Positions 43,222 to 49,746 of a stretch of DNA of 64,000 nt are shown here, in pieces. Every line of letters starts with the position of its first letter. Within the stretch, counting starts at the first letter, position 1. The translations under genes were made by a program, and so were the position numbers. The notes under the pieces were generated by a model. The model worked only from the letters and a program-made list of their open reading frames with translations. It ran no database searches and was not told the DNA's origin. Source of the stretch: an uncultured Pelagibacteraceae bacterium (GTDB taxonomy: Bacteria; Pseudomonadota; Alphaproteobacteria; Pelagibacterales; Pelagibacteraceae); assembly GCA_902609685.1 (NCBI GenBank), contig CACLSR010000001.1, forward strand, positions 49,505 through 113,504. The letters run 5' to 3'.

Positions 43222-43968
43222 ATGTATAAATCATCTTTTTTTATTATTGGTCAACATGCTGTAATCGAAGCTCTACGCAATCCTAAAAGGAAGGTTTTAA
43301 GAGTATTTTTAACTGAGGAAAGTAAGAAAAACATTCATAAAAAAAGCCCTAACAAAAACTTATTAAATGACATCAAGGTATATTTTAAGACAAAAAAAGA
43401 ACTTGATAAATATAGCACTAGAGAAAACTTGCAGCATCAAGGATATGTTGCGGAAGTTGAACATTTTCAAAAACCAATTCTTAAAGAATTTATTAAAGAA
43501 AAGAATGACGTTACTTTAATTTGTCTTGATGGTGTAACTGATCCAAGAAATATAGGATCTTTGATAAGAAGTGCAGCCTCTTTTAATATTGATGGAGTAA
43601 TTATTAAAGAAAGAAACTTTCCTAGTGAAAGTAAACTTATGTATAAAGCATCAAGTGGTGCAATTGAATATATGAATATATTTGAAGTTTCAAATATCAA
43701 TTCGACACTAAAAAATTTAAAAGAAAAAAATTTTTGGGTGTATGGATTTGATAGTAATGGAAAGAAAAGTTTTACTGATATTGAATGGAAAGGAAACAAT
43801 ATATTATTATTTGGATCAGAGGGGTCAGGTATGCATAAACACACATCTAAATATGCAGATTTTTTGGTCAAGATTGAGATAAATAAAAAAATTGAGAGCC
43901 TAAATATATCAAATAGTGCCGCAATTGTATTTCATCATTTAAGCTATCTTAAAAAAAGAGTTGATTAA
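43222..43968 (+). CDS. SpoU/TrmH-family RNA 2'-O-methyltransferase (RlmB-like)
   Basis: 248 aa with motifs DGVTDPRNIGSLIRSA and LLFGSEGSGM. Confidence 0.85.
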   Translation: MYKSSFFIIGQHAVIEALRNPKRKVLRVFLTEESKKNIHKKSPNKNLLNDIKVYFKTKKELDKYSTRENLQHQGYVAEVEHFQKPILKEFIKEKNDVTLICLDGVTDPRNIGSLIRSAASFNIDGVIIKERNFPSESKLMYKASSGAIEYMNIFEVSNINSTLKNLKEKNFWVYGFDSNGKKSFTDIEWKGNNILLFGSEGSGMHKHTSKYADFLVKIEINKKIESLNISNSAAIVFHHLSYLKKRVD

Positions 43969-43997
43969 TTAAAAAATAATTAATAATTAATACGCAT

Positions 43998-44073
43998 GCC
44001 CTTGTAGCTCAGCTGGTAGAGCAATTGATTTGTAATCAATAGGTCCGCGGTTCGAATCCGTGCGGGGGCACCA
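43998..44073 (+). tRNA. tRNA-Thr (anticodon UGU)
   Basis: GCCCTTGTAGCTCAGCTGGTAGAGCAATTGATTTGTAATCAATAGGTCCGCGGTTCGAATCCGTGCGGGGGCACCA. The anticodon stem is ATTGA/TCAAT with loop TTTGTAA. Confidence 0.9.
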
Positions 44074-44082
44074 TCACTCAAT
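44020..44082 (+). repeat. Direct repeat copy 1 (attL-like): 3' 54 nt of tRNA-Thr plus 9 nt downstream
   Basis: agcaattgatttgtaatcaataggtccgcggttcgaatccgtgcgggggcaccatcactcaat. Confidence 0.9.
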
Positions 44083-44189
44083 TAATTCAACACTAATTAT
44101 TTTTACAAGATTACTTTTAAATAAAATTTTTGGGATAATTGTGCCAGCATTGGACCAGTATTGTGCCGTGATCAAGTAGTCAAGGGATA

Positions 44190-44903
44190 TTATCCACCCA
44201 CCTTGTCACTTTTTTTTAAATTATGTCTTCTGCATAGAAGTTGAATATTTTTTGCATCTTTTGAAGTGCCGCCCTTTGAGAAAGGAATAATATGATCTAA
44301 ATGTATGTGGTCTTTTGATCCGCACTTAACACATTGTCCCTTGTCTCTTTTATAAACCTCAATCTGAATATGTCCTGGAATAATTCTGTTATCTTCAGGT
44401 AAATAGCCGTCTTCATTTTGGAAATCTTCTACGCTTTCATTTGTTAAAACTAATTTAAATATATGAACTTTTCTGTTGTTTGAATTTTCTTGGGAAACAT
44501 CAACCAAATCAAAAACTCCATTGAATGACCAAAGTCCCTTTTTAATTTTTTGATAAACTCTAACTTTTTCTGGTTTTTGCAACTCATCCTTAAAATAGTT
44601 TGCAGCTTTAGCAAACTTACCATTTTGAGTAAGTTTTCCGCTTGGGAAAAAAAGTGGTTGATCAACTGTATAAGGATCCTTACCATCGCAATATCTTTTA
44701 TTAAGATTATGACCAACATAATAAATTATTTTACCATCCTCACTTATTTTGTCTTCATAAGGTGCATCGTCACGAACTGACATTAAAACTATAGAATAAT
44801 TTTTATTATTTGTTCTAAAATTCATTCCACTTTCAGGGCGAAAACCCTCAGCATCTTCAATCTGTTTATATGAAATAATCTGTGTCACGTAATAATAAAC
44901 CAA
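44190..44903 (-). CDS. SRA/YDG-like domain + HNH nuclease (candidate type IV, modification-dependent restriction endonuclease)
   Basis: 237 aa. The N-terminal half has EGFRPESGMNF...YSIVLMS...YEDKISEDGKIIYYVGHN...EKVRVYQ...WSFNGVFDLVDV, laid out like an SRA domain. The C-terminal HNH reads CVKCGS...HLDHIIPFSKGG...NIQLLCRRHNLKKSDK. A TTG start is implied, because the SRA-like sequence begins before the first Met. Confidence 0.6.
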   Translation of the reverse strand: MVYYYVTQIISYKQIEDAEGFRPESGMNFRTNNKNYSIVLMSVRDDAPYEDKISEDGKIIYYVGHNLNKRYCDGKDPYTVDQPLFFPSGKLTQNGKFAKAANYFKDELQKPEKVRVYQKIKKGLWSFNGVFDLVDVSQENSNNRKVHIFKLVLTNESVEDFQNEDGYLPEDNRIIPGHIQIEVYKRDKGQCVKCGSKDHIHLDHIIPFSKGGTSKDAKNIQLLCRRHNLKKSDKVGG

Positions 44904-44931
44904 GAACCACGATCCCTAAAAGTTTTTTCAT

Positions 44932-45246
44932 TTAATGATTTGTATATGCATCCGGATAGTTGGTTAAATGTTCATCTGAAATTGGTATCATTACAGCACT
45001 CTCTAGAACAGCACCTGCTTCTTTTCTTTTCTCAGCAAGTTCCTTATCATCTTTAAAAGCTTGAAGTGATCCCATATTTGGAAATTGCATTACTGTATGA
45101 AGTTTTGTCGGGTCATCTTTTTGTACCCCTGCAAAAACAAATTTTATTCCATGCTCTTTTAATTTTCCATCCTGTGCATAGACCATTTCTTTCCATGTTT
45201 TAAATCCTTTAGTAATTGTAATTTCACCTTTTACTAATATTGCCAT
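44932..45246 (-). CDS. Small hypothetical alpha+beta protein (ferredoxin-like pattern; resembles, from memory, DUF3764-type proteins of marine picoplankton)
   Basis: 104-aa ORF with a strong SD (AAGGAG 5 nt before the ATG), 28 nt upstream of the nuclease gene on the same strand. Confidence 0.5.
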   Translation of the reverse strand: MAILVKGEITITKGFKTWKEMVYAQDGKLKEHGIKFVFAGVQKDDPTKLHTVMQFPNMGSLQAFKDDKELAEKRKEAGAVLESAVMIPISDEHLTNYPDAYTNH

Positions 45247-45298
45247 ATGAATCTCCTTATTTATATTTTTAAAGTTTTTTTATTATTAAAACTTTAGC

Positions 45299-45320
45299 AG
45301 TGTGCCCATAGTGTGACCAG
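45299..45320 (+). repeat. Motif copy A: AGTGTGCCCATAGTGTGACCAG
   Basis: 17/22 identical to copy B. Both are followed by ..ATATTT..AGATT. Confidence 0.45.
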
Positions 45321-45371
45321 ACTAAAAATATTTAAAGATTATTGTTGCAAACAAATGTTTATTTAAACTTT

Positions 45372-45434
45372 AGCAATTGATTTGTAATCAATAGGTCCGC
45401 GGTTCGAATCCGTGCGGGGGCACCATCACTCAAT
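45372..45434 (+). repeat. Direct repeat copy 2 (attR-like): partial tRNA-Thr pseudo-copy
   Basis: Identical 63 bp to 44020-44082. It lacks the tRNA 5' half. Confidence 0.9.
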
Positions 45435-45453
45435 AAAATCAATAATTTTTTAT

Positions 45454-45474
45454 AATTTGATTTTTAATCAAATT
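45454..45474 (+). other. Perfect 9-bp AT-rich hairpin 20 nt after the attR-like repeat
   Basis: aatttgatt-ttt-aatcaaatt followed by tt. Confidence 0.3.
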
Positions 45475-45483
45475 TTAATATGA

Positions 45484-45505
45484 AGTGTGACTATAGTGTA
45501 GTCAG
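45484..45505 (+). repeat. Motif copy B: AGTGTGACTATAGTGTAGTCAG
   Basis: 17/22 identical to copy A. It lies 50 nt after the attR-like repeat. Confidence 0.45.
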
Positions 45506-45550
45506 TTTTTTATATTTTTAGATTTTATGTATTTTAAGTTATAAATAAAA

Positions 45551-46591
45551 ATGGATAAATTAGTCGTAATAAATAATGAAAAAATTTCACAACAAAATCA
45601 AAGTTTTTTTTCAAGAAATTACATCCTTAAAAGATTGCCTGAAGGGCTGACCAAATATTTTAATGTTGAGTTAATAGCAAGAAAATCGAATTTGAGTGAA
45701 AACCATGAATTAAAATTAAACAATATAAGAATAGCATCAAATATTTTTCAATTTATTTTTTTTTTAATTTCATCTTTTAAAAATGAAAATACAAAATATT
45801 TCATTATTAGTATTACACCATATACTTTTATATCGTGCCTTGTTTTGTTTATTTGTAGGAAAAAAGTTTTTTTATATTTGATAAGCAATGGTCAAGAAGA
45901 ATGGAAAAATTTATTTGGAAGTTGGTCTGTATGGATTTATAATGTTATGTTTTCTATAGTCACATCTTTATCAATTGTGATAACTATCAGCGAAAAAATT
46001 AATCAAAGGAATAAATTTCATTTAGTTGACTCATCATTTTTAGATGAAAAGTGGTTTGTAAACTTTAAAAAACCTCTAATTGACAAAATCAGATTTTTAT
46101 ATGTAGCAAGAATTAATCCAGTCAAAGGCTTAAATGAATTTTTAAAAATTTTTAAAAACATTAAATTTGACTCAGAATTATCGATAATTGGAAAAACAAG
46201 TAATCTCAAACATCAGAGAGAATTAGAGAAAATAATAAAAAATACAAAAAATATCAAATTTTATGGATACATAGATAAAAGACAAGATTTAATAGATGCA
46301 TTTGATAGTCATAATATATTAATTTTACCATCTTACACAGAAGGTCAACCATCTGTTGTAGATGAGTCTTTAGCAAGAAGAAGACCTGTTATAATTTTCA
46401 AAGACATTGCTCATATAATAAAAGATAGGAAAGGAATTTTCGTGTCTAATAGAGACATAGATTCTTTAAGTGAAACTGCAAGATTTATTATAGAAAACTA
46501 TAAAAAAATTCAAAATGAAATTGAGCAAAATAAATTTATTCTCGAAAAGGAGATGTTTAAACAAATTTCAGAAATCATCAAAAAATATTAA
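45551..46591 (+). CDS. Glycosyltransferase, GT-B fold (GT4-like)
   Basis: 346 aa. The C-terminal half has ...ILILPSYTEGQPSVVDESLARRRPVI..., typical of GT4 donor-binding domains. Confidence 0.7.
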   Translation: MDKLVVINNEKISQQNQSFFSRNYILKRLPEGLTKYFNVELIARKSNLSENHELKLNNIRIASNIFQFIFFLISSFKNENTKYFIISITPYTFISCLVLFICRKKVFLYLISNGQEEWKNLFGSWSVWIYNVMFSIVTSLSIVITISEKINQRNKFHLVDSSFLDEKWFVNFKKPLIDKIRFLYVARINPVKGLNEFLKIFKNIKFDSELSIIGKTSNLKHQRELEKIIKNTKNIKFYGYIDKRQDLIDAFDSHNILILPSYTEGQPSVVDESLARRRPVIIFKDIAHIIKDRKGIFVSNRDIDSLSETARFIIENYKKIQNEIEQNKFILEKEMFKQISEIIKKY

Positions 46592-46618
46592 AATTAGATA
46601 TAAATTTGGTAGGATCAT

Positions 46619-48871
46619 CTAATAATATTTAGATATATCTTTCAAATTTTCTATGAGTTTATTTTTATCCCCTTTTAAAAAGTTTACTTTTAATTTTTCA
46701 AAATAAATTTGAAATTTATCTAAATTTTGTTTTTTATTATTAACCACAAAAATTTCATTACTTATTTTTTTTAAAGTCTCTTTTTTATCCTTAAGAGTTT
46801 CATTTAATTTTTCACCAGGTTGTAATCCTATTTCTCGATATTCAAAGTTATAATCATTATTTATTTTATTTTTAATTTTAGCTAAGTTTTTTGCTAATTG
46901 TAAAATATTTACTGGTTTACCCATATTTAAGATAAATGTATTTGCTTTAAAATTTATATTAGTTGTTTGTAAAACAAGGTGGCATGCCTCCAAAACTGTC
47001 ATAAAATATCTAGATGCTTTTTTACTTGTGATTTCAATAGTACTTCCACTATTTATCTTATCTAGAAAATTATTTATTGCTGACCCTGAACTTCCAAAAA
47101 CATTTCCGAACCGGACTATTTTTATCTTTTTTTGGCTCTGATATTTTTGATTAAAAAACTCACATACTTTTTCAGCTGATCTTTTAGTATGTCCGAGAAT
47201 AGATATCGGGTTAGCAGCCTTGTCCGTAGATATGAATATCATTTCACAGGAATTTTTAAGAGCTAATTTACAAATGTTGAATGTGGCCATAACATTATTT
47301 TTAACAGCCGAGTAAACGTTATTCTGCAGTATGTTTACATGTTTGTATGCTGCAGCGTGAAAAATTATTTGAACTTGATTTTTTTTAATTATTTTTTCCA
47401 AAAATGAGTGATCACTGACATCAATTAGTTGATAATCAATTTTATTACTAAATATTTTTTTACGATGGTTGTAAATACCAATTTCTGATTTATCTACAGC
47501 TATTACTTTTTTAACGTTATGCTGAATCAATTGTCTACATATTTCAGAACCTATCGTACCAGCTGCACCTGTGACTAAAATAGTTTTATTTGATAATTTT
47601 TTAATCTTTTTAAACTTTATTTGTTTTCTATTAAGAATAGAATTAATTTCATTTAAATTAAGATCTTCAATATTAATCTTATCTGAAATCAAAAATTTTT
47701 TTTCCGGTAAATATCGAACATCAAAAAAATTAGTTTTAATTTTTTGAATCATTTTTTCTAATGTTTTTTTATTGAGAGAGGGAATTGTCAAATAAATTCT
47801 TTTAATTTTAAAATTCTTTCTTATTTCGAGTAGACTTCTAAAACTTATTATAGGAATACCTTCATAATTAGTATTTTGTATCTTCAAATCGTCATCGACA
47901 AAAAAAAGTGTATTCTCATTATTCTTATTTAACTCGTGATAAATTTGTTTTCCAGCATTCCCTGCACCATAAATAACCACTCCATCAAGTTCACTTATTC
48001 TCACCTCTTTTTTTTGATTTATAGTGGGTTCTATAATTTTTTTATTTATCTTTAATTTTTTCTTTAAATATTTTCCAAGATTTAAGAATTTAAAATTTTT
48101 AAGCATTCTGATTAAATTTTGATTTTGTGCTACAGAGTTATGTACTTCATCAATATTATTTATCTTAATGATTTTTGAGTTTTTAAAATTTGAAAAATCG
48201 ACAATATCTTTGATTAAATATCCACTACCTGTGCCAACATCATAAATTCCACTAATAATTTTCTTTTCAATAAATTTTTTATAAATTATTGCAATATCTT
48301 TTACATGAATAAAATCTCTTATAGAATTTCCATTATTTATTAGGAAAATTTTTGTATCTTTCTTTTTGGAATTTATTATATTTTCAACAAAGGAAAACTT
48401 ATCTAATGGATCTCCATATGTATTATATAATCTCATAATAAAATATTCTTTTTTCTTTTTATTGGCGTAATTTATTATCAGCTTTTCAGCGGCTAATTTA
48501 AAAGAGGAATATAATTCTCTGTTGTAATTATCTTTTTTTGTATAATTCAAATGTTCAGAAATTCTATAAATTGAAGCACTACTTGTGTAAATTATCTTAT
48601 TTATTTTGTATGATGGAACTTTTTGAAAGATGAGTGAAATTTTTTCAAGAGATAATTCACAAAATTTTTTATAATCATTATGATTTAACATATTTAAATT
48701 TTTTGACGGATAAAAATTATTAAAAATTAAGTTAATCTTTTTAAATTTTTTAAATCTATCTTTAAGATTTGTTTCATTTAATTCATTTGCAGAAAATAAA
48801 AGTGAATTTTTTAAATCTTTATAAATGTATTTTGATATTGAGCTATTTTTACCAATAATTATATTTTTCAT
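46619..48871 (-). CDS. Fusion of an N-terminal extended-SDR epimerase/reductase-like domain with a CapD/WbpM/PglF-type nucleotide-sugar 4,6-dehydratase
   Basis: 750 aa. In aa 1-275: YTSSASIY, YSSFK (YxxxK), RLYNTYGD, IRDFIHVKD. From aa 300 on: IYGAGNAGKQI and LVTGAAGTIGSE, a CapD-like layout. There are no N-terminal TM helices. Confidence 0.75.
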   Translation of the reverse strand: MKNIIIGKNSSISKYIYKDLKNSLLFSANELNETNLKDRFKKFKKINLIFNNFYPSKNLNMLNHNDYKKFCELSLEKISLIFQKVPSYKINKIIYTSSASIYRISEHLNYTKKDNYNRELYSSFKLAAEKLIINYANKKKKEYFIMRLYNTYGDPLDKFSFVENIINSKKKDTKIFLINNGNSIRDFIHVKDIAIIYKKFIEKKIISGIYDVGTGSGYLIKDIVDFSNFKNSKIIKINNIDEVHNSVAQNQNLIRMLKNFKFLNLGKYLKKKLKINKKIIEPTINQKKEVRISELDGVVIYGAGNAGKQIYHELNKNNENTLFFVDDDLKIQNTNYEGIPIISFRSLLEIRKNFKIKRIYLTIPSLNKKTLEKMIQKIKTNFFDVRYLPEKKFLISDKINIEDLNLNEINSILNRKQIKFKKIKKLSNKTILVTGAAGTIGSEICRQLIQHNVKKVIAVDKSEIGIYNHRKKIFSNKIDYQLIDVSDHSFLEKIIKKNQVQIIFHAAAYKHVNILQNNVYSAVKNNVMATFNICKLALKNSCEMIFISTDKAANPISILGHTKRSAEKVCEFFNQKYQSQKKIKIVRFGNVFGSSGSAINNFLDKINSGSTIEITSKKASRYFMTVLEACHLVLQTTNINFKANTFILNMGKPVNILQLAKNLAKIKNKINNDYNFEYREIGLQPGEKLNETLKDKKETLKKISNEIFVVNNKKQNLDKFQIYFEKLKVNFLKGDKNKLIENLKDISKYY

Positions 48872-48885
48872 ATTTAGCCTTGTTA

Positions 48886-49656
48886 CTATGAGGTTTCTCG
48901 GCGTAATTGTTCTAGTTTAATCTTTTTTTGCAAACTTTTATTCTTGTCATACAAGAGGTTGAATTTTATTTTTTGGTTTGTTTTTACAACAATATTCTTA
49001 GCATTTCTTATTTCAATGTTATCTGCAACGGCACTGATAGGTCTTTTTTTTGAATTTAAGTTTTTAATTAAAATCTTTGACCTATCACTTACTATTTTCC
49101 CTTTCCATCTTCTAGGTCTAAATGGACTTATAGGTGAAATAGATAGTTTTTTTGAGTTTAAACTCAGGATTGGTCCATGAACTGAAAGATTATACGCTGT
49201 ACTTCCAGCGGGTGTTGAAACCAAAACACCATCAGAAACAAGTTTTTTAATAACTTGTTTAGAGCCATGATTAATTGATAAAGAAGCGGCTTGTCTACTT
49301 TGTCTTAAAATTGAAACTTCATTTATAGCTATATGTTTTTTAGTTTGATTTTTATTATTCTTAACAACCATCTCTAGTGGAGAGATGGTTATCATTTTTG
49401 CTTTATGTAAATTATTTATGAGATTTTTTGACGAAAATTTATTCATCAAAAAACCATAACTTCCTGAATTTATGCCGTAAAAAAATTTTTTTGATTTTCT
49501 ATTTTTTTTTAATGTTTGCAGCATGAAGCCATCACCACCAATAACAATTATAATGTTAGATCTTTTAACTTTATTTTGACTAATTTTTTTTTGGATTACT
49601 GATTTTATTTTTGAAGATTTTTGGTTTTTATCAGATATGATTTGAACCCTGTTCAT
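48886..49656 (-). CDS. nadK: NAD kinase
   Basis: 256 aa with motifs IVIGGDGFML and VSTPAGSTAYNLS. Confidence 0.9.
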   Translation of the reverse strand: MNRVQIISDKNQKSSKIKSVIQKKISQNKVKRSNIIIVIGGDGFMLQTLKKNRKSKKFFYGINSGSYGFLMNKFSSKNLINNLHKAKMITISPLEMVVKNNKNQTKKHIAINEVSILRQSRQAASLSINHGSKQVIKKLVSDGVLVSTPAGSTAYNLSVHGPILSLNSKKLSISPISPFRPRRWKGKIVSDRSKILIKNLNSKKRPISAVADNIEIRNAKNIVVKTNQKIKFNLLYDKNKSLQKKIKLEQLRRETS

Positions 49657-49660
49657 TTAA

Positions 49661-49746
49661 TGGTGCCCTCGGCCAGACTCGAACTGGCACTCCGCAAGCG
49701 GCAAGGATTTTAAGTCCTTTGTGTCTACCAATTTCACCACGAGGGC
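49661..49746 (-). tRNA. tRNA-Leu (anticodon UAA), long variable arm
   Basis: Reverse complement GCCCTCGTGGTGAAATTGGTAGACACAAAGGACTTAAAATCCTTGCCGCTTGCGGAGTGCCAGTTCGAGTCTGGCCGAGGGCACCA. Confidence 0.9.

What the first reader, a model, noticed from the sequence alone, without database searches (positions are those of the whole stretch)
44020..45434. Perfect 63-bp duplication of the tRNA-Thr 3' half brackets a 1.3-kb two-gene insert with no integrase
Seen directly: 44020-44082 and 45372-45434 are identical (agcaattgatttgtaatcaataggtccgcggttcgaatccgtgcgggggcaccatcactcaat). Copy 1 is the last 54 nt of an intact tRNA-Thr(UGU) plus 9 nt of flank. Copy 2 lacks the tRNA 5' half. This is the classic attL/attR signature of site-specific integration into a tRNA 3' end. 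However, the 1,289 bp between the copies encode only an SRA-like/HNH nuclease and a 104-aa protein, with no recombinase. The insert is therefore either the decayed stump of a larger element or a mini-cassette mobilised in trans. A prophage origin is one option, since temperate pelagiphages have been reported to use tRNA genes as attB. In a genome with almost no spare DNA, retention of a perfect 63-bp repeat argues for a recent event or ongoing use. The ~300-bp gap at 45247-45550 is also very long for this window.
Basis: partly seen in the sequence, partly recalled or inferred. Interest (0 to 1): 0.78.

Follow-up and report, generated by a model that had tools for sequence, protein, structure and literature searches.

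The report
Integrase-less gene cassette at tRNA-Thr
The duplicated tRNA-Thr end is real and brackets a 1.3-kb integrase-less gene cassette that still carries complete recombination arms, one unit of a cassette system found at this tRNA in at least 29 of 80 related SAR11 genomes, whose arms carry the same repeated word as a lineage of integrases encoded by small marine satellite-like elements.

Summary
44020-44082 and 45372-45434 are identical: 54 nt of the tRNA-Thr(UGU) 3' end plus 9 nt.

In 80 Pelagibacteraceae genomes this tRNA is an integration hot spot:
- 18 show a clean empty site.
- 29 carry one to four extra partial tRNA copies, giving 39 cassettes with very diverse cargo.

Small cassettes share one layout. 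A roughly 110-nt left arm holds 2-4 direct repeats at 11-nt spacing. Cargo genes run antisense to the tRNA. A right arm holds 2 repeats, with the cargo start codon typically 116 nt from the next copy. This is a lambda-like attP split into attL and attR.

Integrase-bearing 5.5-9-kb elements, some assembled as circles or concatemers, have the same layout with the integrase in the cargo position. Nine integrase N-terminal variants each pair with a different repeat word. The window's word, TGTGCC, matches elements L105, L106 and L108.

The insert is best read as a non-autonomous cassette carrying an SRA-HNH nuclease and a DUF3764 protein. Mobilisation by a cognate integrase supplied from elsewhere is inferred, not shown. 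The 9 extra repeat bases and the long gap come from a roughly 90-nt stump of an older cassette after copy 2.

Partial tRNA repeats in SAR11 islands and Pelagibacter satellites have been reported. The arm architecture and integrase matching were not in the papers I found.

The parts
43998..44073 (+). Intact tRNA-Thr(UGU). Its 3' 54 nt (44020-44073) are repeat copy 1 and form the attL core.
   Evidence: ARAGORN; Rfam tRNA at 70.9 bits; repeat family D1.
44074..44189 (.). Left arm of the cassette, equivalent to a P' arm. It starts TCACTCAAT, holds three arm-type sites at 11-nt spacing (TGTGCCA 44140, TGGACCA 44151, TGTGCCG 44162), and ends with the conserved motif ATCAAGTAGTC at 44171-44181.
   Evidence: Sequence. 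Homologous left arms occur in L006, L022, L036 and L061. TGTGCC occurs 8 times in 64 kb, and 3 of those are in the two arms.
44190..44888 (-). Cargo gene 1, an SRA-HNH nuclease of 232 aa from a GTG start. It resembles modification-dependent (type IV) restriction enzymes.
   Evidence: Pfam HNH. Homologues are 232 aa. 27 of 31 family members hit Pfam SAD_SRA. The family profile hits the SUVH5 SRA domain, PDB 3q0b, at E=6e-4.
44866..44931 (-). A 21-codon stub (MKKLLGIVVLGLLLRDTDYFI*). It is the 5' remnant of a lipoprotein gene and marks where the HNH gene replaced two lipoprotein genes. It overlaps the HNH start codon.
   Evidence: Homology to L036 stops at 44182 and resumes at 44894. The roughly 45-nt motif recurs in many loci. 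Cluster representatives start MKKLLGIVVLGLLL. A similar stub precedes the 80%-identical HNH gene in L085 and L086.
44932..45246 (-). Cargo gene 2, a 104-aa DUF3764 protein (called DUF1330-like by one source).
   Evidence: Pfam DUF3764. The gene is 92-95% identical in DNA in L029, L036 and L058, while the adjacent rlmB is only 82-85% identical. Homologues are abundant in marine metagenomes.
45247..45371 (.). Right arm of the cassette, equivalent to a P arm. It holds two arm-type sites at 11-nt spacing (TGTGCCC 45301-45307, TGTGACC 45312-45318), followed by the conserved core-proximal block ATTGTTGCAAACAAATGTTTATTTAAACTTT.
   Evidence: Sequence. The same block and sites occur in 12 other cassettes with unrelated cargo. 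The window's sites read TGTGCCCATAGTGTGACCAGA; integrase-bearing L105/L106/L108 read TGTGCCCATAGTGTGCCCAGA, a single mismatch.
45372..45425 (+). Partial tRNA-Thr, repeat copy 2 and the attR core. It has no 5' half and is not a functional tRNA.
45426..45516 (.). Stump of an older cassette's left arm. It begins TCACTCAATAAAATCAA and retains two arm-type sites of a different word (TGTGACT 45486, TGTAGTC 45497). The rest of that cassette and its right copy are deleted.
   Evidence: Comparison with the left arms of L004, L074 and L070_2. Homology to the native flank in L011, L013 and L020 starts at 45517. L049 shows a comparable stump.
45551..46591 (+). GT4 glycosyltransferase, the first gene of the native low-GC glycosylation island that adjoins this tRNA in this lineage.
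   Evidence: Pfam Glycos_transf_1. Orthologues lie about 50 nt after the tRNA in L011 and L012, or after the last copy in L013 and L020. GC is 0.20-0.25.

Best explanation
The 1.3-kb insert is a non-autonomous integrative gene cassette. It entered the 3' half of tRNA-Thr(UGU) by tyrosine-integrase site-specific recombination. That event regenerated the tRNA (attL) and left a 54-nt partial copy (attR).

Both ends keep a complete set of arm-type integrase-binding sites. Three TGTGCC-like sites lie in the left arm and two in the right arm, all at 11-nt spacing. Joined head to tail, they would rebuild a lambda-like attP.

The cassette encodes no integrase. Its cargo occupies the position and orientation that the integrase gene holds in related autonomous elements. 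The cargo is an SRA-HNH nuclease, probably acting against phages with modified DNA, plus a DUF3764 protein.

The cognate integrase would be supplied by a satellite-like element of about 8.7 kb whose own attP uses the same TGTGCCC word (the type seen in L106 and L108). This could happen in trans. It could also happen by accretion: a satellite integrates next to a cassette, the two excise together using the outer att sites, and after transfer the satellite later leaves alone.

Repeated integrations at the intact tRNA push older units outward, building the arrays seen in relatives. Deletions erode older units, as in the stump at 45426-45516.

Status of each step:
- Shown: the repeats, the empty and occupied alleles, the shared layout, the pairing of arm word with integrase type, and the circular or concatemeric integrase-bearing elements.
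- Inferred: integrase binding to the arm words, present-day mobility, the accretion route, and promoter activity in the right arm.
For: Repeat and tRNA.

Hot spot:
- 79 of 80 related loci have tRNA-Thr after rlmB, and 29 have 1-4 extra partial copies.
- 18 have a clean empty site, and 10 have the same native flank after the last copy.

Layout in 34 small cassettes:
- All credible ORFs are on the minus strand.
- The gap from CCA to the nearest stop codon has a median of 110 nt.
- The gap from the start codon to the next copy is 114-117 nt in 19 of 34, and exactly 116 nt in 11.

Arm words:
- 31 of 40 cassettes share a periodic 6-mer between their own left and right arms. The figure is 23% for non-cognate pairs and about 0 for shuffles. 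The window's own cassette scores 0 on this strict test. Its case rests on the next point.
- In the window, 3 of the 8 TGTGCC occurrences lie in the two arms.

Autonomous relatives:
- L002, L028, L094-L097, L106 and L108 have the order integrase, P arm, tRNA-Thr core, P' arm.
- L094 (period 5.5 kb) and L097 (period 6.98 kb) carry the integrase twice, as expected of circles or concatemers. L098, a sibling that uses a tRNA-Asn-like core, has matching genes at both contig ends.
- Nine integrase N-terminal variants (GKWxVxIRRSF) pair with nine different arm words.
- The WAVS variant in L105, L106 and L108 pairs with TGTGCCCATAGTGTGCCCAGA. The window has TGTGCCCATAGTGTGACCAGA.

Cassettes as a lineage of their own: the core-proximal blocks TCACTCAATAAAATCAAC... 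and ...TTGCAAACAAATGTTTATTTAAACTTT are shared by cassettes with different arm words and differ from the autonomous elements.

Horizontal movement: the DUF3764 module with its right arm is 92-95% identical in genomes whose adjacent rlmB is only 82-85% identical. It occupies a different array position with different partner genes.

Accretion hint: in L061 (HIMB4) a TGTGCC-type cassette lies directly next to a unit that carries cargo behind an integrase-type right arm with TGTGCCA/TGTACCA sites and only about four residues of an integrase-like start.
Against: - No excision product, attB/attP junction read or circular cassette was observed.
- Cassette arm sequences were not found in IMG/VR viral contigs.
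- No integrase of the family is in the 64-kb window or in 79 of the 80 loci, so a helper may rarely be present.
- Matching arm words at both ends are also expected for a decayed autonomous element, because both arms derive from one attP.
- A SAG that is 99.5% identical over 9.8 kb carries the same insert, so the insert is stable at strain level.
- The window's left arm has one degenerate site (TGGACC), and the window's cassette scored 0 on the strict periodic-word test.
- Promoter-like matches in the arms are no more frequent than chance.
Confidence: 0.68

Rival explanations
1. Decayed stump. A full integrase-bearing element of 6-9 kb integrated at the tRNA and lost its integrase and replication genes by internal deletion. 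The two genes and the arms are immobile relics.
For: Both arms of any integrated element come from one attP, so matching words do not exclude decay. L061 cassette 2 has an integrase-type right arm and only about four residues of an integrase-like start, with a 369-aa cargo ORF in its place. Stumps of arms exist in the window at 45426-45516 and in L049. In L091-L093 the attR core next to an intact integrase has been deleted.
Against: Random deletions would not place unrelated cargo start codons 114-117 nt from the next copy in 19 of 34 cassettes, nor make all cargo antisense. Cassette arms have their own conserved core-proximal blocks, shared across different arm-word families and distinct from those of the autonomous elements. 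No integrase fragment was detectable by tblastn in any cassette. In a genome this compact, about 240 nt of useless arms per cassette would be expected to erode.
Confidence: 0.18
2. Exchange by homologous recombination. The 47-57-nt tRNA repeats, the conserved arms and the conserved signal-peptide sequence act only as homology patches. RecA-mediated gain, loss and swapping of cassettes follows DNA uptake, with no present-day site-specific recombination.
For: Cassettes are mosaic. The HNH gene replaced two lipoprotein genes exactly between the inner end of the left arm and the conserved signal-peptide codons. L013 cassette 2 has non-matching arm words. In L058 the DUF3764 gene is fused directly to the tRNA.
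Against: Homologous recombination does not explain why the arm repeats keep an 11-nt spacing and co-vary in word with integrase N-terminal variants. It also does not explain the original creation of a partial tRNA copy, which requires an attP carrying the tRNA segment. It probably acts as a secondary process that reshuffles cargo.
Confidence: 0.08
3. Remnant of a temperate pelagiphage prophage that used tRNA-Thr as attB.
For: Environmental contigs related to pelagiphage HTVC106P were reported to carry an integrase plus a sequence identical to SAR11 tRNA-Thr or tRNA-Asn (bioRxiv 10.1101/2019.12.14.876532). HTVC019P-type pelagiphages integrate into tRNA genes (bioRxiv 10.1101/410191).
Against: There is no phage structural, lysis or replication gene in the insert. 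PHROGs returns only generic HNH hits. The elements sharing the attP design are 5.5-9 kb and encode an integrase, a primase/helicase (DUF5906 or AAA_25) and in some a small terminase. That content resembles satellites, not phages. The integration sites demonstrated for HTVC019P-type isolates are tRNA-Cys, tRNA-Leu and tRNA-Arg.
Confidence: 0.03

Closest known systems
CIMEs (cis-mobilizable elements) and accretion-mobilisation in the Streptococcus thermophilus ICESt1/ICESt3 family (from my own knowledge: Pavlovic 2004, Bellanger 2011)
   Same: Elements bounded by attL and attR at a fixed chromosomal site. They lack an integrase and are thought to move when a related autonomous element integrates alongside them and both excise together.
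   Different: Here the units are far smaller (0.7-2 kb). They stack up to four deep at a tRNA and have a rigid layout with cargo in the integrase position. They fall into many arm-word specificities. The helpers are satellite-like elements rather than conjugative elements. Mobilisation is not shown.
Tycheposons and tRNA-anchored genomic islands of Prochlorococcus (Hackl et al., bioRxiv 10.1101/2020.12.28.424599)
   Same: Streamlined marine bacteria. Tyrosine-recombinase elements integrate at tRNA or tmRNA genes, tandem elements are separated only by a partial tRNA, newer arrivals push older ones into the island, and degenerate remnants are present.
   Different: Tycheposons are defined as integrase-carrying elements with hallmark genes. 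The units here carry no integrase but retain full arms. The host is SAR11. Whether the integrase family belongs to the tycheposon clade was not tested.
VEIMEs, marine phage-satellite-like elements found in Pelagibacter (Eppley et al. 2022, PMC9618062)
   Same: The integrase-bearing relatives (L002, L094-L098, L101, L102, L108) are 5.5-9 kb and encode a tyrosine integrase, a primase/helicase and sometimes a small terminase. Some appear as concatemers or circles. This matches the published description of Pelagibacter-associated modules.
   Different: The window's insert has none of those genes. It shares only the att architecture. Whether my loci are among the published VEIMEs was not checked.
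Partial tRNA repeats in SAR11 and Methylophilaceae flexible genomic islands (Molina-Pardines et al. 2025, PMC11796062; Methylophilaceae islands, PMC10872708)
   Same: [quoted passage not shown] A Methylophilaceae additive island shows recurring 20-bp tRNA-Lys repeats.
   Different: In the text I read, those papers report the repeats only. They do not describe the arm-type sites, the fixed layout, the arm-word families or the link to specific integrase lineages.
Integron gene cassettes
   Same: Arrays of small, mostly single-function, same-orientation cassettes at one site. Cargo is very diverse, and the recombinase is encoded outside the cassette.
   Different: There is no IntI and no attC hairpin site. 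The recombination site is a tRNA fragment with flanking arm-type repeats. Each cassette brings its own upstream arm rather than depending on a common promoter. Cassettes are antisense to the anchor gene.
Lambda-type heterobivalent tyrosine integrases and their attP (from my own knowledge)
   Same: A core flanked by arms that carry repeated arm-type sites. Here there are two in the P arm next to the int gene and two to four in the P' arm. The variable integrase N-terminal strand is consistent with an arm-binding domain.
   Different: No binding data exist. The sites sit at a strict 11-nt spacing as direct repeats, and the int start codon lies within about 15 nt of the P-arm sites.
SRA-HNH modification-dependent restriction enzymes such as TagI (from my own knowledge)
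   Same: An N-terminal SRA-like domain followed by a C-terminal HNH motif with zinc-binding cysteines.
   Different: The window protein itself does not reach the Pfam SAD_SRA threshold; only the family does. Activity and modification specificity are untested.

Membership tests
Site-specific integration into a tRNA 3' end (attL/attR) | Direct repeat made of the tRNA 3' segment, with the full gene at one end and a partial copy at the other | tested here: met
   63/63 identity. Copy 1 lies in the intact tRNA and copy 2 lacks the 5' half.
Site-specific integration into a tRNA 3' end (attL/attR) | Empty (attB) alleles in relatives, with the same flank following the last copy in occupied alleles | tested here: met
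   18 empty alleles, and 10 occupied alleles with the same native flank.
Site-specific integration into a tRNA 3' end (attL/attR) | An attP carrying the same core next to an integrase in an extrachromosomal element | tested here: met
   L002, L094-L097, L106 and L108.
Site-specific integration into a tRNA 3' end (attL/attR) | Integrase encoded within the integrated element | tested here: not met
   Only an HNH gene and a DUF3764 gene lie between the copies. tblastn with the 326-aa satellite-type integrases found no hit in the window; the P4-like type was not queried.
Non-autonomous integrative element (CIME-like, mobilisable cassette) | Both att sites complete, including arm-type sites, and no recombinase of its own | tested here: met
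   Three sites at 44140-44168 and two at 45301-45318, at 11-nt spacing.
Non-autonomous integrative element (CIME-like, mobilisable cassette) | A related autonomous element exists with the same att specificity | tested here: met
   L105, L106 and L108 carry a WAVS-type integrase and arms reading TGTGCCCATAGTGTGCCCAGA.
Non-autonomous integrative element (CIME-like, mobilisable cassette) | Excision or transfer demonstrated when the helper is present | not testable with these tools
   This needs junction reads, PCR or an in vitro recombination assay.
Integron gene cassette | An attC site (imperfect inverted repeat that folds as a single strand) and an IntI integrase with an attI site | tested here: not met
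   The site between cassettes is a tRNA fragment plus direct-repeat arms. The associated integrases are lambda-like 326-aa proteins matching PF00589, or P4-like proteins. No IntI is adjacent.
Phage satellite / VEIME / PICI-like element | Integrase plus replication (primase/helicase) and packaging-hijack genes | tested here: not met
   All are absent from the insert. They are present in relatives L002, L094, L097, L101 and L102.
Tycheposon | Tycheposon-clade tyrosine or serine recombinase plus hallmark genes | not tested
   No tycheposon recombinase sequences were available for comparison. The insert has no recombinase at all.
Prophage remnant | Phage structural, lysis or replication genes, or fragments of them | tested here: not met
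   PHROGs returns only HNH families. No viral contig encodes a relative of the HNH protein.
SRA-HNH (type IV, modification-dependent) restriction endonuclease | N-terminal SRA/SAD domain fused to a C-terminal HNH catalytic motif | tested here: met
   HNH is found in the window protein. SAD_SRA is found in 27 of 31 family members, and the family profile matches the SUVH5 SRA domain. The SRA call is at family level only.

The most novel reading that the evidence does not exclude
SAR11, which is reputed to lack mobile elements, has a tRNA- and tmRNA-anchored cassette system comparable in role to integrons. It would comprise a large pool of 0.7-2-kb cassettes, each with its own lambda-type att arms. 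The arms would have diversified into many specificities in step with the arm-binding domains of integrases carried by phage satellites. Cassettes would be deposited and collected by passing satellites, making this a major route by which streamlined ocean bacteria gain defence and surface genes.
Probability: 0.4. Interest if true: 0.82.

Novelty: new variant of a known kind. Interest (0 to 1): 0.62.

Why it matters
SAR11 is the most abundant bacterial group in the ocean. It has a large flexible gene pool, yet its genomes are reported to contain almost no integrases, transposons or prophages. How it acquires genes is therefore unclear.

This locus offers a concrete, testable mechanism: small cassettes that keep full recombination arms but borrow the integrase of transient satellite elements. 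The pairing of integrase N-terminal variants with arm words gives a natural specificity code that can be tested by binding and swap experiments. HIMB4 (L061), whose record is an isolate genome, carries an array, so experiments may be possible. The cargo seen here and in sister cassettes points to phage defence and cell-surface variation as the traded functions. It includes an SRA-HNH nuclease, type I restriction-modification genes, pilin-like paralogues and lipoproteins.

Tried and rejected
- A third, degenerate tRNA-Thr copy elsewhere in the window: none found.
- Partial copies of the other four tRNAs in the window: none found.
- HNH relatives in IMG/VR viral contigs: none found.
- Cassette-type right-arm and left-arm sequences in IMG/VR: none found. 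There is therefore no evidence that cassettes are packaged.
- Integrase homologues in IMG/VR using an alignment query: only L002 and one distant hit, L083.
- Integrase remnants inside cassettes or in the window by relaxed tblastn: none found.
- PADLOC and NCBIfam on the two proteins: only weak generic HNH hits.
- PDB search with the single HNH protein: only a marginal IscB HNH hit. The family profile was needed to see the SRA domain.
- Promoter and terminator scans of 43900-45700: matches at or below chance, with no terminator. The promoter role of the right arm therefore remains inference.
- Homing-endonuclease reading of the HNH gene: considered because a lipoprotein signal-peptide stub precedes it here and in L085 and L086. 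Set aside because the family has an SRA domain and is widespread as a stand-alone gene in unrelated bacteria.
- 'Pelagibacter, resolved' (bioRxiv 10.64898/2026.04.03.716430): describes a different hypervariable region anchored by tRNA-Phe/His and tRNA-Arg, not this site.
- 'Ecogenomics of the SAR11 clade' (PMC7318151): does not mention tRNA-linked islands.
Full report
**1. The observation**

The window comes from a Pelagibacter (SAR11) genome; the closest relatives retrieved are all Pelagibacteraceae. The gene order here is rplA, rplK, nusG, secE, tRNA-Trp, tuf, tRNA-Gly, tRNA-Tyr, rlmB-like SpoU methylase, tRNA-Thr(UGU).

- 44020-44082 and 45372-45434 are identical over 63 nt, and 97% identical over 71 nt.
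- A 32-nt core allowing up to 3 mismatches occurs exactly twice in the window, against none in 100 shuffles.
- Copy 1 is the last 54 nt of the intact tRNA at 43998-44073, plus 9 nt.
- Copy 2 has no 5' half. ARAGORN does not call it, and Rfam scores it below threshold.
- No third copy exists in the window.
- Between the copies lie two minus-strand genes, an HNH nuclease and a DUF3764 protein. No integrase of the satellite family is present anywhere in the 64 kb.

**2. Relatives show a hot spot with empty and occupied alleles**

Using the upstream RlmB protein I fetched 80 syntenic loci from Pelagibacteraceae single-cell and isolate genomes.

- 79 have the tRNA-Thr.
- 29 have one to four further partial 3' copies downstream. 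This gives 39 cassettes of 0.4-9.9 kb.
- In 18 genomes the tRNA is followed directly by a conserved native flank (TCAAGAAGTTTCTTTTC...).
- In 10 occupied genomes that same flank follows the last partial copy.
- A second native flank is the glycosyltransferase gene found at 45551 in the window. It follows the tRNA directly in L011 and L012, and follows the last copy in L013 and L020.
- Cargo is extremely diverse: 127 ORFs in 91 clusters. It includes pilin-like paralogues, lipoproteins with a shared signal peptide, probable type I restriction-modification genes, a globin and others.
- The partial copies are 47-55 nt long, and 24 of 40 are identical to the genome's own tRNA. Perfection is therefore the rule.

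**3. A fixed cassette layout**

In the 34 cassettes under 4.5 kb, every credible ORF is antisense to the tRNA. The gap from CCA to the nearest stop codon has a median of 110 nt. The distance from the cargo start codon to the next copy is 114-117 nt in 19 of 34, and exactly 116 nt in 11.

The left arm runs as follows:
- It begins TCACTCAATAAAATCAAC..., or CTTCACTTAC... in a second family.
- It contains two to four direct repeats at 11-nt spacing.
- It ends with ATCAAGTAGTC just before the stop codon.

The right arm has two such repeats about 15 nt upstream of the start codon. A conserved core-proximal block follows, which in the window's family reads ATTGTTGCAAACAAATGTTTATTTAAACTTT.

The repeated 'word' differs between cassette families: TGTGCC/TGTGACC, TGTTGTC, TGCGGAC, TGTGTCG, TGCAGAC, TGTGTAC, TGTAGTCGA, TAAGTGAAT. 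Within a cassette it is usually the same in both arms. This holds for 31 of 40 cassettes, against 23% of non-cognate pairs and about 0 after shuffling.

The window's own cassette scores 0 on that strict test. Its left arm has TGTGCCA, TGGACCA and TGTGCCG at 44140-44168, and its right arm has TGTGCCC and TGTGACC at 45301-45318. Only 8 TGTGCC occur in the whole 64 kb, and 3 of them are in these arms.

**4. Autonomous relatives and a specificity code**

The core occurs in viral contig L002 (8.9 kb), about 95 nt upstream of a 328-aa tyrosine integrase, with the P-arm sites between them. That contig also encodes a primase/helicase-like protein and a small-terminase-like protein.

One SAR11 genome, L028, has a 6.9-kb insert of this kind between tRNA-Thr and a partial copy. 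The integrase family has about 2,400 homologues in metagenomes.

Contigs L094 and L097 carry the integrase twice, with periods of 5.5 and 6.98 kb, as expected of circles or concatemers. L098, a sibling at a tRNA-Asn-like core, has matching genes at both contig ends.

All show the same order: integrase start codon, two arm repeats, about 70 nt, a 56-57-nt tRNA-Thr 3' core (a tRNA-Asn-like core with a GTT anticodon in L098 and L102), about 110 nt, two to three arm repeats, then A(A/T)CAAGAGTC.

The integrase N-terminal strand GKWxVxIRRSF varies. Each variant I sampled pairs with a different arm word:

| N-terminal variant | Arm word | Loci |
|---|---|---|
| WHVE | TGCGGAC | L002 |
| WCVE | TGCGACC | L094-L096 |
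| WQVS | TGCGGTC | L091-L093 |
| WGAW | TGTTGTC | L028 |
| WGVW | TGTTGCA | L097 |
| WFVQ | TGTGTTC | L098 |
| WLVQ | TGTGACT | L102 |
| WYVQ | TGTGTAT | L101 |
| WAVS | TGTGCCC | L105, L106, L108 |

L106 and L108 have an intact attP:
- P arm: ATGTTGTGCCCATAGTGTGCCCAGAT
- Core: tRNA-Thr 3' segment
- P' arm: ATTGTGCCCACAGTGTGCCCAAAACAAGAGTC

The window's right arm reads TGTGCCCATAGTGTGACCAGA at the corresponding position. An integrase lineage that uses the window cassette's arm word therefore exists in the ocean. A second, P4-like integrase type (L015, and L003 by shared left flank) pairs with the TGTAGTGAG word. TGTAGTGA-like words recur in integrase-less cassette arms and stumps such as L073.

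**5. Anatomy of the window's unit**

- Homology to the sister cassette in L036 runs through the left arm to 44182 and resumes at 44894. L036 has the same left arm, DUF3764 gene and right arm.
- In between, L036 has two lipoprotein genes where the window has the HNH gene.
- A 21-codon stub of the lipoprotein signal peptide (44931-44866) remains and overlaps the HNH GTG start. A similar stub precedes an 80%-identical HNH gene in L085 and L086.
- Cargo is therefore also reshuffled inside cassettes, probably by homologous recombination at conserved sequences.
- The HNH protein is full length, 232 aa like its homologues. It belongs to an SRA-HNH family.
- More distant homologues (56-66% identical) sit in similarly built cassettes at the permuted tmRNA gene. 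In L087 a repeat of about 30 nt from ssrA flanks the cassette, and ATGCCGAC-type repeats lie near both ends. L084 shows an analogous arrangement.
- The stretch after copy 2 (45426-45516) begins like a cassette left arm and carries TGTGACT and TGTAGTC at 11-nt spacing. Homology to the native flank in L011, L013 and L020 resumes at 45517.
- That stump explains why the repeat extends 9 nt past CCA (17 nt at lower identity). Together with the right arm and the partial tRNA, it also explains the roughly 300-nt 'gap'.

**6. Mechanism**

The best reading is a non-autonomous cassette with a complete split attP. A cognate integrase supplied by a satellite-like element would mobilise it, either in trans or by accretion with co-excision.

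All partial copies retain the anticodon stem-loop and everything 3' of it. This fits the anticodon-loop crossover typical of many tRNA-targeting integrases (my own knowledge, Williams 2002). It is an inference.

Because cargo sits where the integrase gene sits in autonomous elements, it is probably transcribed from the arm. That too is inference, because the promoter scan was uninformative.

Turnover at the site:
- The site's content differs completely among genomes about 90% identical in rlmB (L003-L006).
- A SAG 99.5% identical over 9.8 kb has the same insert.
- Turnover is therefore faster than species divergence but slow at strain level.
- The DUF3764 module is 92-95% identical across backgrounds where rlmB is only 82-85% identical. 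This argues for horizontal spread.

**7. Rivals**

- A decayed stump cannot be excluded for this single unit, because both arms of any integrated element share one origin. It does not explain the uniform geometry, the cassette-specific arm blocks shared across word families, or the absence of integrase fragments.
- Pure homologous-recombination exchange explains cargo mosaics. It does not explain the arm periodicity or the co-variation with integrases.
- A prophage origin lacks any phage gene in support.

**8. Relation to the literature**

- Tandem elements separated by partial tRNAs, and remnants in islands, are described for Prochlorococcus tycheposons.
- Satellite-like VEIMEs are reported in Pelagibacter.
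- Partial tRNA repeats marking 'a gene cassette' were noted in four SAR11 islands, with no mobile elements found.
- Recurring tRNA-Lys repeats mark a Methylophilaceae island.
- Integrase-bearing pelagiphage-like contigs with tRNA-Thr or tRNA-Asn identity were noted.
- I found no description of integrase-less cassettes with full arm-type sites, their fixed layout, or the pairing of integrase type with arm word. My literature search was limited to the held library.

**9. Verdict**

It is a new variant of a known kind: non-autonomous integrative elements at tRNA hot spots. Its interest for SAR11 genome biology is moderate to high. Mobility is not demonstrated.

Noticed in passing
L087:5835-7852 and L084:5830-7961: Homologues of the window's HNH gene (56-66% identical) lie in similarly built mini-cassettes at the permuted tmRNA gene. 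A repeat of about 30 nt from ssrA flanks the cassette in L087. Direct repeats lie near both ends (AATAATGCCGACC... in L087, TGTGATC in L084). The cassette system is therefore not confined to tRNA-Thr.
   Followed up: partly
L091-L093:7900-12700: An intact integrase (WQVS type) is found with an identical protein sequence in at least 24 metagenome contigs. It sits inside a SAR11 glycosylation island with NeuB, glycosyltransferase and CTP-transferase genes, between tRNA-Thr and an NAD kinase gene. It keeps its P-arm sites, but the adjacent attR core has been deleted. It looks like a stranded cargo-carrying element.
   Followed up: partly
window 45551-49746: The low-GC (0.20-0.25) glycosylation island lies between tRNA-Thr(UGU) and tRNA-Leu(UAA). 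It holds a GT4 glycosyltransferase, a 750-aa epimerase/dehydratase-type protein and an NAD kinase. tRNA-Leu(TAA) is a published integration site of HTVC105P-type pelagiphages (bioRxiv 10.1101/410191). No partial tRNA-Leu copy is present in the window.
   Followed up: partly
L001:779-1618: A 15-kb viral contig carries a tRNA array (Thr, Ala, Asp). Its tRNA-Thr(UGU) is identical over all 76 nt to the window's host gene.
   Followed up: no
window 44866-44931; L085:1940-1985; L086:20-70: A short upstream ORF derived from a lipoprotein signal peptide (MKKLLGI...) ends at or overlaps the start codon of the SRA-HNH gene. This is seen in the window and in two metagenome contigs whose HNH is 80% identical. 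It may reflect translational coupling, or a recurrent recombination breakpoint at the conserved 45-nt signal-peptide sequence.
   Followed up: partly
L052:10967-17809, L070:13285-17030, L059:6175-7700: Some cassettes hold tandem arrays of up to ten type IV pilin-like paralogues (N-terminus FTLIELLVVVAIIGILAA). This was the largest protein cluster among cassette cargo, with 19 members.
   Followed up: no
L098-L100 and L102-L103: Sister integrases (WFVQ and WLVQ types) use an attP core whose anticodon reads GTT (tRNA-Asn-like) instead of tRNA-Thr, with the same arm layout. L103 has a roughly 95-nt deletion in its P arm relative to L102.
   Followed up: no
L058:10829-11185: In this genome the DUF3764 gene is fused directly to the 3' end of the intact tRNA-Thr, with no left arm and no other gene between. 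This appears to be a deletion variant of the window's cassette family.
   Followed up: no
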